64,000 nt of DNA, taken from NCBI RefSeq assembly GCF_036507355.1, contig NZ_AP027877.1; one strand, given 5' to 3'. The stretch is from Escherichia coli (GTDB lineage: Bacteria > Pseudomonadota > Gammaproteobacteria > Enterobacterales > Enterobacteriaceae). The notes beneath the pieces are model-generated. The model worked only from the letters and a program-made list of their open reading frames with translations, did not search any database and was not told the DNA's origin. Below, one piece after another: positions 41,081-44,531 of this stretch (position 1 is its first letter; each line of letters begins with the position of its first letter). The translations under genes and the position numbers were made by a program.

Positions 41081-42498
41081 GACGGTTCTCCTCGCTCTCA
41101 TTGTCATAGTGCGGCAGGCGATTCTCTTCACGCTCCTGTGAGACAGCAGTTTGTAGGGTAAATGCCCAGTACCGCAACGGGCAGAATAGCAGGATTTTGA
41201 CGATGTGTTAATCTGTTTACAAAAAAGCAACATAAAAAAGTGGCTGAATCGTTAAGGATGGTCTAGAGATTGTTTCCCTCCGTAAAAACTTCGTTAATTC
41301 GCATAGTGATAATCACCTTTCTCAACGAATCCCAAGATTAGTCAAAATTTAAACTACCGCCTCTTTATACTCAGATTTACAGCACCTGCGGGTGGCAGTT
41401 CGCCGACCATTGCGATTTCCTTGAGATCCGAATTATGAAAATGACTTTGCCGTTTAAACCCCATGTGCTGGCGCTAATTTGCAGTGCCGGGCTTTGTGCC
41501 GCCTCTACCGGGCTATATATAAAAAGCCGCACAGTGGAAGCGCCTGTGGAACCGCAATCGACACAACTGGCTGTGTCTGACGCTGCCGCGGTTACGCTTC
41601 CTGCAACGGTTTCCGCACCTCCCGTAACACCCGCCGTCGTCAAATCCGCATTCAGCACTGCACAAATAGATCAATGGGTCGCGCCCGTCGCGCTGTATCC
41701 CGACGCCCTACTTTCGCAGGTGCTGATGGCATCAACCTATCCGACAAACGTTGCTCAAGCAGTGCAATGGTCGCACGATAATCCACTTAAACAAGGCGAT
41801 GCTGCTATTCAGGCGGTATCTGACCAGCCGTGGGACGCCAGCGTTAAATCACTGGTGGCCTTTCCACAATTGATGGCATTGATGGGCGAAAACCCGCAAT
41901 GAGTGCAAAACCTGGGCGATGCTTTTCTGGCGCAGCCGCAGGACGTGATGGACTCGGTACAGCGATTGCGGCAACTGGCGCAACAAACCGGCTCGCTGAA
42001 GTCATCAACCGAACAGAAAGTTATTACCACAACGAAGAAAGCTGTACCGGTAAAACAGACAGTCACGGCACCCGTCATACCATCCAATACCGTTTCAACT
42101 GCCAACCCTGTCATTACAGAGCCTGCAACAACCGTCATTTCCATTGAGCCCGCCAATCCTGATGTAGTCTATATTCCCAACTACAACCCAACCGTGGTTT
42201 ACGGGAACTGGGCCAATACTGCGTATCCGCCGGTTTATCTGCCACCACCAGCCGGAGAACCGTTTGTTGACAGCTTTGTGCGCGGATTCGGCTATAGCAT
42301 GGGCGTTGCTACCACGTACGCACTATTCAGCAGCATCGACTGGGATGACGACGATCATGACCATTATCATCATGACGATGATAATTATCATCACCACGAT
42401 GGCGGTCATCGTGACGGTAATGGCTGGCAACACAATGAATCGCCACGGGTTTAACAGACACCTCAGAGTCATTTAAGATGGCTTAAAGAGAGGTGCCC

Positions 42499-42777
42499 AT
42501 GAGCGGTAAGCGTTATCCCGAAGAGTTTAAAATTGAAGCAGTCAAACAGGTTGTTGATCGCGGTTATTCTGTTGCCAGCGTTGCAACACGTCTCGATATC
42601 ACCACCCACAGCCTTTACGCCTGGATAAAGAAGTACGGTCCGGATTCTTCCGCTAATAAAGAACAGTCAGATGCTCAGGCCGAGATCCGCCGTCTCCAGA
42701 AAGAGCTGAAGCGGGTTACCGACGAACGGGACATATTAAAAAAAGCCGCGGCGTACTTCGCAAAGCTGTCCGACTGA
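42499..42777 (+). CDS. IS3-family transposase OrfA (helix-turn-helix plus leucine zipper)
   Basis: MSGKRYPEEFKIEAVKQVVDRGYSVASVATRLDITTHSLYAWIKKYG...; slippery A7G at 42738-42745 near the 3' end. Confidence 0.85.
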   Translation: MSGKRYPEEFKIEAVKQVVDRGYSVASVATRLDITTHSLYAWIKKYGPDSSANKEQSDAQAEIRRLQKELKRVTDERDILKKAAAYFAKLSD

Positions 42778-42833
42778 GGTACGCCTTTATCCGTGACAAC
42801 ACCTGTTGCTGGCCTGTTCGCCTGCTCTGTCGG

Positions 42834-43646
42834 GTGCTGGATGTTCATCCCAGTGGTTTTTACGCCTGGCTTCAGCAGCCGCATTCACAACGCCATCAGG
42901 CAGACCTGAGGCTGACAGGGCAGATTAAACAGTTCTGGCTGGAATCGGGATGCGTCTATGGTTATCGCAAAATCCATCTGGATCTGCGGGACAGCGGGCA
43001 ACAGTGCGGAGTGAACAGAGTCTGGCGACTGATGAAACGTGTCGGGATAAAGGCTCAGGTCGGATACCGGAGCCCGCGGGCACGTAAAGGCGAGGCCAGT
43101 ATCGTGTCGCCCAACAGGCTCCAGCGACAGTTCAATCCGGATGCTCCGGATAAGCGTTGGGTAACGGACATAACCTACATCAGGACCCACGAAGGCTGGC
43201 TGTATCTTGCCGTGGTTGTTGATCTGTTCTCACGCAAAATTATCGGCTGGTCCATGCAATCCCGGATGACAAAGGACATTGTCCTGAACGCACTGCTGAT
43301 GGCTGTATGGCGCCGTAATCCCCAAAAACAGGTGCTGGTTCATTCGGATCAGGGCAGTCAGTACACAAGCCATGAGTGGCAGTCGTTCCTGAAATCACAC
43401 GGCCTGGATGGCAGCATGAGCCGTCGCGGTAACTGCCATGATAATGCGGTTGCAGAAAGCTTTTTCCAGTTGTTGAAACGCGAACGGATAAAGAAAAAGA
43501 TCTACGGAACGCGGGAAGAAGCCCGCAGCGATATTTTTGATTACATCGAAATGTTTTATAACAGTAAGCGTCGGCATGGTTCCAGCGATCAGATGTCACC
43601 GACAGAATATGAAAACCAGTATTATCAACGGCTCGGAAGTGTCTAG
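42834..43646 (+). CDS. IS3-family transposase OrfB (DDE integrase core), expected as OrfAB fusion by -1 frameshift
   Basis: ORF track 270 aa in -1 frame relative to orfA; motifs WVTDITYI, HSDQGSQYTS, CHDNAVAESFF. Confidence 0.85.
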   Translation: MLDVHPSGFYAWLQQPHSQRHQADLRLTGQIKQFWLESGCVYGYRKIHLDLRDSGQQCGVNRVWRLMKRVGIKAQVGYRSPRARKGEASIVSPNRLQRQFNPDAPDKRWVTDITYIRTHEGWLYLAVVVDLFSRKIIGWSMQSRMTKDIVLNALLMAVWRRNPQKQVLVHSDQGSQYTSHEWQSFLKSHGLDGSMSRRGNCHDNAVAESFFQLLKRERIKKKIYGTREEARSDIFDYIEMFYNSKRRHGSSDQMSPTEYENQYYQRLGSV

Positions 43647-44070
43647 ATTATCCGTGGCGATTCACAACGGCGACAACATCAATATCGACGTCAACAATTT
43701 CAACCGTATCACCGGTGAGCATCTTACTGATAAGAATATGGCATGGCGGCACAATCAAAACTACCGTAATGGTGTGCCCTATCATGATCAGGATATGGCA
43801 AAGCGGTTTCATCAAACCGATGTCAACGGCGGAATGAGTGCCACGCAGCTACCTGCTCCAACACGCGACAGCCAGCGTCAGGCGGCAGCAAGTCAGTTTC
43901 AGCAACGAACACACGCCGCCCCCGTCATTACACGAGATACCCAACGTCAGGCAGCGGCACAGCGGTTTAATGAAGCTGAACACTATGGGAGCTATGACGA
44001 CTTCCGCGACTTCAGCCGTCGCCAACCACTGACCCAGCAACAAAAGGACGCCGCTCGTCAGCGTTATCAG

Positions 44071-44420
44071 TCAGCTTCTCCTGAGCAGCGCCAGGCAGTT
44101 CACGAGAAAATGCAGACTAACCCGCAGAACCAGCAGCGAAGAGAGGCAGCGCGTGAGCGCATTCAGCCCGCCTCGCCTGAGCAGCGCCAGGCAGTCCGCG
44201 AGAAAATACAGATTAACCCACAGATCCAGCAGCGAAGAGACGCAGCGCGTGAGCGTATTCAGTCAGCCTCGCCTGAGCAGCGCCAGGTGTTTAAGGAAAA
44301 AGTACAGCAGCGCCCACTGAACCAACAGCAACGTGATAACGCCCGCCAGCGTGTTCAATCAGCATCACCTGAACAACGTCAGGTTTTTCGGGAGAAAGTT
44401 CAGGAGAGCCGCCCACAACG
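44071..44420 (+). repeat. Tandem 96-bp coding repeats (about 3.6 copies) in the yacH 3' part
   Basis: Repeated 32-aa unit SASPEQRQAV(H/R)EK(M/I)Q.NPQ.QQRR.AARERIQ with copies starting at 44071, 44167, 44263, 44359. Confidence 0.7.
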
Positions 44421-44531
44421 TCTAAACGACAGTAACCATACTGCCAGGCTGAATAACGAGCAACGGTCAGCAGTACGCGAACGTCTCTCTGAGCGCGGAG
44501 CAAGGCGACTGGAAAGGTAAATTACAGGCGT

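What the first reader, a model, noticed from the sequence alone, without database searches (positions are those of the whole stretch)
42433..43667. IS3-family insertion sequence with 3-bp target duplication inside yacH
A 1229-bp element with terminal inverted repeats (tgaatcgccacgg... / ...ccgtggcgattca), flanked by direct CAA repeats, carries orfA and an orfB in the -1 frame with an A7G slippery site at 42738-42745. It splits the yacH frame between ...GWQHN and GDNINID.... The clean target duplication and intact frameshift site suggest a recent, possibly still active copy. The transposase N-terminus looks like IS600 to me, but that is recollection only.
Basis: partly seen in the sequence, partly recalled or inferred. 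Interest (0 to 1): 0.5.

Follow-up and report, generated by a model that had tools for sequence, protein, structure and literature searches.

The report
ISEhe3-like insertion sequence disrupting yacH
An ordinary, intact, widely distributed mobile element (IS3 family, ISEhe3 clade, not IS600) has inserted into the non-essential gene yacH of an E. coli/Shigella-type chromosome, and yacH also carries a separate premature stop codon.

Summary
Window 42436-43664 is a 1229-bp insertion sequence with TG...CA ends. Its terminal inverted repeats are 13/13 perfect and 28/38 overall, and a CAA/CAA 3-bp target duplication flanks it. It carries orfA, an A7G slippery run (42738-42745) and orfB in the -1 frame. 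Removing the element plus one CAA restores yacH exactly, and the site is uninterrupted in 11/11 intact alleles.

The fused OrfAB (382 aa) is a full-length IS3-family DDE transposase. The same 1229-bp unit occurs at 99.9% identity in E. coli and at 99.5-99.6% on Klebsiella and Enterobacter plasmids.

- **Not IS600.** There is no nucleotide similarity, and OrfAB is 37% identical.
- **ISEhe3 clade.** The length matches the reference, and UniRef names the exact OrfA "ISEhe3 transposase A". Sequences the literature calls ISEhe3 are only about 89% identical, so the exact ISfinder name is unresolved.
yacH also has an independent W156* mutation (TGG>TGA at 41902).
- **Shared insertion.** Both junctions recur in independent assemblies, so the insertion is shared by a lineage.

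The copy looks transposition-competent. It has one private, non-catalytic E304D change, and that allele is multi-copy in one E. coli genome. This is routine biology of low interest.

The parts
41435..42435 (+). yacH 5' part (DUF3300 protein gene), up to and including the left copy of the duplicated CAA
   Evidence: ORFs. The rebuilt gene aligns to annotated yacH at 99.0%.
41900..41902 (+). Independent premature stop in yacH: codon 156 TGA (W156*), G>A at 41902
   Evidence: In-frame stop seen. The codon is TGG in 11/11 intact alleles. The same truncated 155-aa product is on record in other read sets.
42433..42435 (.). Left copy of the 3-bp target-site duplication (CAA)
   Evidence: The empty site CAACAC-AAC-GGC is contiguous in 11 intact alleles.
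42436..42473 (+). Left terminal inverted repeat (IRL), starting 5'-TG; the first 13 nt are perfectly complementary to the right end
   Evidence: the repeat finder I1; alignment; identical 13-nt ends in 16 other full-length copies.
42451..42479 (+). Promoter-like site TTAACA-17-TAAGAT upstream of orfA, partly inside IRL (inferred native promoter)
   Evidence: Consensus scan, 9/12 matches. This is a pattern match only.
42499..42777 (+). orfA (92 aa, HTH_Tnp_1 DNA-binding protein); GAGAGG Shine-Dalgarno 5 nt upstream
   Evidence: Pfam HTH_Tnp_1 at 1.3e-18. The exact protein is named 'ISEhe3 transposase A' in UniRef A8Y8E1_ECOLX.
42738..42745 (+). A7G slippery run, read as A AAA AAA G in the orfA frame: the programmed -1 frameshift site
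   Evidence: It is present at the same position in 13 of 16 other full-length copies. PGAP annotates identical copies as 'programmed frameshift'.
42750..42785 (+). 11-bp hairpin starting 5 nt after the slippery heptamer and enclosing the orfA stop (TGA 42775-42777); inferred frameshift stimulator
   Evidence: MFE fold and the repeat finder I24. The arms are nearly invariant in 21 distinct variants, but there is no compensatory change and the segment is doubly coding. No Rfam match.
42499..43646 (+). OrfAB transposase (382 aa) made by a -1 frameshift; orfB frame from 42744. Catalytic D224, D284, E320 and K327
   Evidence: Translation. NCBIfam NF033516 IS3 transposase, 437 bits, model positions 1-369 of 369. 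Pfam HTH_21, rve and rve_2. DDE spacing of 60 and 36.
43409..43409 (+). Private substitution T (G in the common allele WP_089518920.1) = OrfAB E304D, a non-catalytic position
   Evidence: E is present in 6/6 related copies checked, and K in IS600. The D allele has 4 protein accessions on one 4.64-Mb E. coli contig. It is also found 100% identical in SRR7721861.
43627..43664 (+). Right terminal inverted repeat (IRR), ending ...CA-3'
43665..43667 (.). Right copy of the 3-bp target-site duplication (CAA)
43668..44520 (+). yacH 3' part, in frame with the 5' part once the IS and one CAA are removed

Best explanation
Window 42436-43664 is one complete copy of a 1229-bp IS3-family insertion sequence of the ISEhe3 clade. 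It transposed into codon 334 of yacH and duplicated the 3-bp target CAA.

How it most likely works, by analogy with studied IS3-family members such as IS911, IS3, IS2 and IS150:
- A weak promoter in the left end drives orfA.
- Normal translation yields the 92-aa OrfA, a helix-turn-helix regulator.
- A programmed -1 slip on A AAA AAA G, probably helped by the hairpin 5 nt downstream, yields the 382-aa OrfAB DDE transposase.
- OrfAB binds the TG...CA inverted repeats and makes a figure-eight and then a circular copy of the element (copy-out).
- It then integrates that copy elsewhere (paste-in), producing 3-bp duplications.

Shown here: the anatomy, the family assignment of the protein, the target duplication, the exact restoration of yacH, and the spread of identical copies across genomes and plasmids.

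Inferred: promoter use, frameshift stimulation by the hairpin, the copy-out/paste-in route, and current activity.

The consequence for the host is inactivation of yacH. That gene was or became independently dead through W156*, and its neighbours acnB (divergent) and lpd (convergent) are not in its transcription path.
For: - Ends, duplication and frames.
- Exact restoration of yacH: ungapped 99.0% alignment to annotated yacH; the target site is contiguous in 11/11 intact alleles.
- Protein family: OrfAB matches NF033516 (IS3 family transposase) end to end at 437 bits against a cut-off of 160. Pfam finds HTH_Tnp_1, HTH_21, rve and rve_2. The D224/D284/E320/K327 spacing is 60 and 36.
- Annotation elsewhere: PGAP annotates 99.9%-identical units as 'IS3 family transposase, programmed frameshift', with the same start and stop.
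- Spread: the same 1229-bp unit is found in 187 E. coli records and 702 plasmid records at 80% coverage or more. It also occurs in many Enterobacterales species representatives.
- Target duplication: a 3-bp duplication in 4/15 other copies, P about 7e-5.
- ISEhe3 clade: the exact OrfA is named 'ISEhe3 transposase A'. The ISEhe3 reference allele is 1229 bp (PMC11756799 Table 5). ISEhe3 is IS3 family, IS51 group, DR 3-4 bp (PMC10425158 Table 8).
- The insertion is real: both junctions are seen in independent assemblies.
- The allele has multiplied: 4 protein accessions on one E. coli chromosome.
Against: - No experiment or read-level data here shows that this copy moves.
- The private E304D change has not been tested. 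It is conservative and lies outside the DDE triad.
- The hairpin has no covariation support, and the 113-nt segment is not unusually stable (z = -1.0).
- 11 of 15 other full-length copies lack a 3-bp duplication. Many copies have therefore been rearranged after insertion, or the duplication is not invariable.
- The two sequences that the literature labels ISEhe3 are only 88.7-89.5% identical to this element. It may therefore carry a different ISfinder name.
Confidence: 0.93

Rival explanations
1. The element is a copy of IS600.
For: Both elements have 'DILKK' followed by A7G at the frameshift site, TG...CA ends and a GTTTAAC-GACAC motif in the left end.
Against: An IS600 copy annotated by PGAP (L073, 'IS3-like element IS600 family transposase') was compared. 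It shows no significant nucleotide alignment (best 37 nt, E = 0.017). Its OrfAB is only 37% identical over 383 aa. The left ends also differ (TGAGGTAGCC... versus TGAATCGCCA...). The ends of that copy lie about 1264 nt apart, against 1229 bp here.
Confidence: 0.01
2. The copy is structurally intact but functionally dead or crippled. On this reading it is a fixed relic that no longer transposes, for example because E304D or host factors block it.
For: E304 is conserved in all related copies checked. The insertion is shared by several data sets, so it is not brand new. There is only one copy in this 64-kb window.
Against: - E to D is conservative and lies outside the D224/D284/E320 triad. IS600 has K at the equivalent position.
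- The D304 OrfB has four separate protein accessions on one 4.64-Mb E. coli chromosome. An identical copy also sits next to an IS600 end in another read set. The allele therefore multiplied after the mutation arose.
- Short-read contigs break at the IS in two related assemblies, as expected for a repeated element.
Confidence: 0.2
3. It is not ISEhe3 itself but a distinct sister IS, under 95% identical to the ISfinder type, with its own name or none.
For: - The SfIV phage copy annotated ISEhe3 is 89.4-89.5% identical to the window element.
- The deltaISEhe3 of the IS5-deltaISEhe3-groEL-blaNDM-1 context is 88.7% identical to the window element.
- These two literature-labelled sequences are 99.5% identical to each other (PMC10469622, PMC9990273).
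- OrfB identity between the two lineages is about 92.6%.
Against: - The exact OrfA of the window copy is named 'ISEhe3 transposase A' in UniRef.
- The length equals the 1229-bp reference allele (PMC11756799).
- Window-type copies occur in Pantoea at 98.2% (L034), and Pantoea is the genus from which ISEhe3 was defined.
- Labels in papers and databases are usually best-hit names without a 95% threshold, so either lineage could be the type.
Confidence: 0.45
4. The IS-in-yacH arrangement is an assembly artefact, with a repeat placed in the wrong location.
For: IS elements are classic causes of misassembly. No complete RefSeq E. coli (0 of 5426) has this junction.
Against: - The left junction is in Logan contig SRR17480487_207 (L076).
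- The right junction is in NCBI GCA_905398635.1 contig CAJPYL010000003.1 (L090).
- Both are nearly identical to the window over 4-5 kb.
- The perfect 3-bp duplication and the exact frame restoration are signatures of real transposition.
Confidence: 0.01

Closest known systems
ISEhe3 (IS3 family, IS51 group; ISfinder reference AF327445, from Pantoea agglomerans pPATH)
   Same: - Length is 1229 bp, as for the reference allele.
- Same two-ORF organisation, TG...CA ends and 3-bp duplication.
- The exact OrfA is labelled 'ISEhe3 transposase A' in UniRef.
- Same host range: Pantoea, Klebsiella, Enterobacter, E. coli, Shigella and Cronobacter relatives (PMC10425158, PMC11756799).
   Different: The sequences that papers and GenBank label ISEhe3 are the SfIV prophage copy and the deltaISEhe3 beside groEL in NDM-1 regions. 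Both are only 88.7-89.5% identical in nucleotides, and OrfB is about 92.6% identical. The type sequence itself could not be compared.
IS600 (IS3 family, Shigella/E. coli)
   Same: Same family architecture: orfA plus orfB in the -1 frame, A7G preceded by DILKK, TG...CA ends, and a similar size.
   Different: OrfAB is only 37% identical and there is no nucleotide similarity. The inverted repeats differ. The ends of the compared copy lie about 1264 nt apart, against 1229 bp here. It is a different element.
IS911 / IS3 / IS2 / IS150 (the experimentally studied IS3-family members; from my knowledge of the literature, not tested here)
   Same: Programmed -1 frameshift on an A-rich slippery run giving OrfAB, a DDE (rve) catalytic core, TG...CA ends and short target duplications. 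Their copy-out/paste-in route through a circular intermediate is the mechanism inferred here.
   Different: They were not compared at sequence level here. The frameshift stimulator in this element is a simple predicted hairpin and has not been verified. No convincing junction promoter could be recognised on a modelled circle junction (8/12 match).

Membership tests
IS3 family | Transposase is a DDE (rve/integrase-core) enzyme matching the family profile | tested here: met
   NF033516 at 437 bits (cut-off 160), covering model positions 1-369 of 369. Pfam rve at 9.9e-33, plus HTH_21 and rve_2. D224, D284, E320 and K327.
IS3 family | Two consecutive, overlapping ORFs with orfB in the -1 frame, and an A-rich slippery motif (A6G/A7G) that allows an OrfAB fusion | tested here: met
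   orfA is 42499-42777 and A7G is 42738-42745. The -1 fusion is open for 382 aa. PGAP annotates identical copies as 'programmed frameshift'. Frameshifting itself was not measured.
IS3 family | Imperfect terminal inverted repeats ending 5'-TG...CA-3', with element size about 1.2-1.5 kb | tested here: met
   TGAATCGCCACGG...CCGTGGCGATTCA, 28/38 complementary, 1229 bp.
IS3 family | Short target-site duplication (3-5 bp; 3-4 bp for the IS51 group according to ISfinder as quoted in PMC10425158) | tested here: met
   CAA/CAA here. A 3-bp duplication is also seen in 4/15 other full-length copies, P about 7e-5.
IS3 family | Copy-out/paste-in transposition through a circular intermediate | not testable with these tools
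   This needs outward PCR, or reads spanning an IRR-3 bp-IRL junction. A modelled junction gave only an 8/12 promoter match.
ISEhe3 (ISfinder entry) | At least 95% nucleotide identity to the ISfinder reference sequence (AF327445) | not testable with these tools
   The reference is not available in any searchable collection here. As proxies, the literature-labelled copies are 88.7-89.5% identical. The exact OrfA carries the ISEhe3 name in UniRef.
ISEhe3 (ISfinder entry) | Length of 1229 bp and IS3-family organisation | tested here: met
   1229 bp here. The reference allele is 1229 bp (PMC11756799 Table 5).
IS600 | High nucleotide and protein identity to IS600 | tested here: not met
   No significant nucleotide alignment and 37% OrfAB identity to an annotated IS600 copy.
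IS1222-type ribosomal frameshift element and other Rfam families | Match to a curated RNA covariance model | tested here: not met
   No Rfam match at E <= 1 in 42300-43800.

The most novel reading that the evidence does not exclude
The element could be an as-yet separately unnamed sister of ISEhe3, about 11% diverged from the lineage the literature calls ISEhe3. On this reading its private E304D allele is currently expanding in a rare, Shigella/EIEC-like E. coli lineage. The backbone is at most 98.4% identical to any of 5426 complete RefSeq E. coli. In that lineage the element would add to pseudogene formation alongside point mutations such as yacH W156*, and it can land in the tips of other IS elements such as IS600.
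Probability: 0.3. Interest if true: 0.2.

Novelty: already known. Interest (0 to 1): 0.1.

Why it matters
It matters little beyond correct annotation.

- It gives a clean, fully resolved example of an IS3-family insertion, with ends, target duplication, frameshift site and empty site all defined. The element should be labelled ISEhe3-like, not IS600.
- yacH should be annotated as a pseudogene with two independent lesions.
- Sequences called 'ISEhe3' in the literature fall into at least two lineages about 11% apart. This affects IS-typing tools and copy counts.
- The insertion and the D304 allele are usable markers for tracking this particular E. coli/Shigella-like lineage.

Tried and rejected
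1. IS600 identity was tested against a PGAP-annotated IS600 copy and rejected.
2. Other copies in the window: phmmer of OrfAB against all six-frame ORFs, a self-BLAST and an IS1-end probe found no second IS3-type element and no IS1 end.
3. Shared insertion in complete E. coli: 0 of 5426 RefSeq genomes have the junction.
4. Host identification failed.
   - The backbone is at most 98.4% identical to any complete E. coli.
   - The species-representative scan did not contain the source genome.
   - AcnB is too widely shared to help.
   - Hawkey et al.'s ISMapper table shows no ISEhe3 site near yacH in S. flexneri.
   - Accession and run identifiers are not in the paper library.
5. Obtaining a curated ISEhe3 copy: MF344574, KF732966 and MH909345 without the NZ_ prefix are absent from the plasmid collection. 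Searches for MF344558 and p10677-NDM found no paper. Only NZ_MH909345 could be used.
6. Covariation support for the frameshift hairpin: the arms are simply conserved. The one variant with two changes (L017) has them at non-partner positions, so they are not compensatory.
7. Circle-junction promoter: only an 8/12 match, not convincing.
8. Rfam: no match.
9. The chimeric ORF starting at MKTSII... is not on record. The MVPAIRC... start is.
Full report
**1. What is in the sequence**

The stretch 42436-43664 (1229 bp) begins TGAATCGCCACGG and ends CCGTGGCGATTCA. The repeat finder reports these as the arms of a 38-nt inverted repeat that is 74% complementary. The first 13 nt are perfect. A 20-nt left-end probe has no other match in the window, and none is expected by chance.

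CAA lies immediately outside both ends, at 42433-42435 and 43665-43667.

Inside the element:
- orfA runs from 42499 to 42777 (92 aa), preceded by a GAGAGG Shine-Dalgarno sequence.
- A run of seven A followed by G lies at 42738-42745. In the orfA frame it reads A AAA AAA G.
- The -1 frame is open from there to the stop at 43644-43646.
- A -1 slip therefore gives a stop-free 382-aa OrfAB.

**2. The empty site**

Deleting the element and one CAA restores a single yacH frame across the junction (...GNGWQHN|GDNINID...). The rebuilt 1857-nt gene aligns without gaps to annotated yacH of O157:H7-type E. coli at 99.0%, with 19 substitutions. In 11 independent intact alleles the target site CAACA(C/T)AACGGC is uninterrupted, and 7 of them carry exactly the CAC-AAC version. 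This is the signature of a real transposition event with a 3-bp duplication.

**3. What the element is**

The fused OrfAB matches NCBIfam NF033516 (IS3 family transposase) over the whole model, at 437 bits against a cut-off of 160. Pfam finds HTH_Tnp_1, HTH_21, rve and rve_2. The catalytic residues are D224, D284 and E320, with K327 at +7. The spacings of 60 and 36 residues are typical of the family.

The identical 1229-bp unit, with identical ends, occurs widely:
- at 99.9% identity on E. coli chromosomes and plasmids, where PGAP annotates it as 'IS3 family transposase, programmed frameshift' with the same start and stop;
- at 99.5-99.6% on Klebsiella and Enterobacter plasmids;
- in many Enterobacterales species representatives, especially Pantoea. 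One Pantoea assembly contains a collapsed repeat contig of exactly 1229 bp.

Fifteen other full-length copies have flanks on both sides, and four of them have a perfect 3-bp duplication. That compares with 1/64 expected per copy (P about 7e-5). The rest have presumably been rearranged since they inserted.

**4. Not IS600**

I used my recollection of IS600 OrfA only as a probe to find a copy that PGAP annotates as 'IS3-like element IS600 family transposase'. Against that real sequence there is no significant nucleotide similarity. OrfAB is 37% identical.

**5. The name**

According to ISfinder as quoted in PMC10425158 (Table 8), ISEhe3 is IS3 family, IS51 group, with 3-4-bp DRs (accession AF327445). 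Its reference allele is 1229 bp (PMC11756799, Table 5). UniRef carries the exact OrfA of this copy as 'ISEhe3 transposase A' (A8Y8E1_ECOLX).

Two sequences that the literature labels ISEhe3 tell a different story:
- The copy in Shigella phage SfIV is only 89.4-89.5% identical to the window element.
- The deltaISEhe3 in the common IS5-deltaISEhe3-groEL-...-blaNDM-1 context is only 88.7% identical (PMC10469622, PMC9990273; located in p205880-NDM).
- These two are 99.5% identical to each other.

There are therefore at least two lineages about 11% apart, and both are found in Pantoea (L034 is 98.2% identical to the window type; L011 is 93.6% identical to the SfIV type). Which lineage is the ISfinder type could not be determined, because the reference is not in any collection I could search. 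I therefore call the element ISEhe3-clade and leave the exact name open.

**6. Frameshift signal**

An 11-bp hairpin (42750-42760 paired with 42775-42785) starts 5 nt after the slippery heptamer and encloses the orfA stop codon. Its arms are almost invariant in 21 distinct variants, down to about 88% overall identity. No compensatory pair was seen, and the segment codes in two frames. Conservation therefore cannot be credited to RNA structure. The 113-nt segment is not unusually stable (z = -1.0), and no Rfam family matches. The hairpin's role as a stimulator is an inference from other IS3-family elements.

A promoter-like TTAACA-17-TAAGAT site lies in the left end upstream of orfA. A modelled circle junction gives only an 8/12 promoter match.

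**7. State of this copy**

It differs from the commonest allele (WP_089518920.1) at one base. T replaces G at 43409, giving E304D. Residue 304 is outside the catalytic triad. It is E in all related copies checked and K in IS600.

The D304 OrfB is on record in NCBI under four protein accessions on a single 4.64-Mb E. coli contig. A copy 100% identical to the window copy is present in read set SRR7721861, where its left end sits 3 nt from the tip of an IS600 right end. The allele has therefore multiplied, which argues that it is transposition-competent. No direct test of activity was possible.

**8. State of the host gene and lineage**

Codon 156 is TGA in the window and TGG in 11/11 intact alleles, a G>A change at 41902. 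yacH is flanked by divergent acnB and convergent lpd, so no polar effect on neighbours is expected.

Independent assemblies confirm the insertion:
- The left junction and W156* are present in Logan contig SRR17480487_207, with 1 mismatch in 5031 nt. The contig ends 30 nt inside the IS.
- The right junction is present in NCBI GCA_905398635.1, with 1 mismatch in 3947 nt. The contig starts 91 nt inside the IS.

The insertion is thus real and shared by a lineage. The contig breaks at the IS suggest that the element is repeated in those genomes.

No complete RefSeq E. coli (0 of 5426) has the insertion. The 21-kb backbone to the left is at most 98.4% identical to any of them. The host is therefore a rare or non-'E. 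coli'-labelled lineage of the species. A Shigella- or EIEC-like identity is suspected but not established. This is the only IS3-type element in the 64-kb window, and no IS1 end was found.

**9. Verdict**

The IS3-family interpretation is supported and the IS600 attribution is refuted. This is an ordinary insertion of a known, widespread IS, so novelty is 'already known' and interest is low.

Noticed in passing
window 41900-41902: yacH carries an independent nonsense mutation, W156* (TGG>TGA, G>A at 41902), upstream of the IS. The gene is therefore inactivated twice. All 11 intact alleles examined have TGG.
   Followed up: yes
L078 (Logan SRR7721861_1196) 1-1258: An IS copy 100% identical to the window copy, including the D304 allele, is preceded by 29 nt that match the right end of IS600. 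The insertion point is 3 nt from the IS600 tip. This is an IS-into-IS-end insertion in another genome.
   Followed up: partly
L089 28193-28961 (p205880-NDM) and L075 1501-2728 (phage SfIV): The 'deltaISEhe3' beside groEL in the common blaNDM-1 context and the 'ISEhe3' in phage SfIV are 99.5% identical to each other. Both are only about 89% identical to the window-type element that is common on E. coli, Klebsiella and Enterobacter plasmids. The label ISEhe3 therefore covers at least two lineages. The SfIV copy also lacks the A7G run (ATATTGAATCTACAG).
   Followed up: partly
L021, L070, L010, L038, L005, L065, L018 (region equivalent to window 42738-42745): Several diverged copies in other genera have an A6G run, a lost G or a 15-nt deletion at the slippery site. 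These changes would break the orfA/orfB -1 relationship. They are probably decayed copies or homopolymer sequencing errors.
   Followed up: no
L034 (Pantoea sp. alder81 NODE_32, 1229 bp): A SPAdes contig of exactly 1229 bp equals the element from end to end (98.2% identity). Its coverage is about 265x, against about 58-68x for the four other contigs of this assembly in the list. This implies roughly four copies and independently confirms the element boundaries.
   Followed up: partly
window 44031-44287: The 3' part of yacH has internal direct repeats about 96 nt apart at 84% identity. They encode the reiterated ...ASPEQRQ(A/V)(V/F)xEK(M/I/V)Q... motif. yacH length also varies among E. coli (585-617 aa), and it is split into 115 + 523 aa in one strain (L085).
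   Followed up: no
window 42343-42420: Just upstream of the insertion site, YacH has a His/Asp-rich low-complexity tract (DWDDDDHDHYHHDDDNYHHHDGGHRDG). It is built from short overlapping direct and inverted DNA repeats.
   Followed up: no
window 47232-48094 and 24544-25003: Self-BLAST shows diverged internal repeats: about 300-nt units at 80% identity in 47232-48094, and about 180-nt units at 79% identity in 24544-25003. The first lies in the aceF region and is probably the repeated lipoyl domains. The second was not identified.
   Followed up: no
window 20000-41400: The backbone is at most 98.4% identical to any of 5426 complete RefSeq E. coli genomes over 21 kb, although gene order is the same. 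The host lineage is unusual or is not labelled E. coli in RefSeq.
   Followed up: partly
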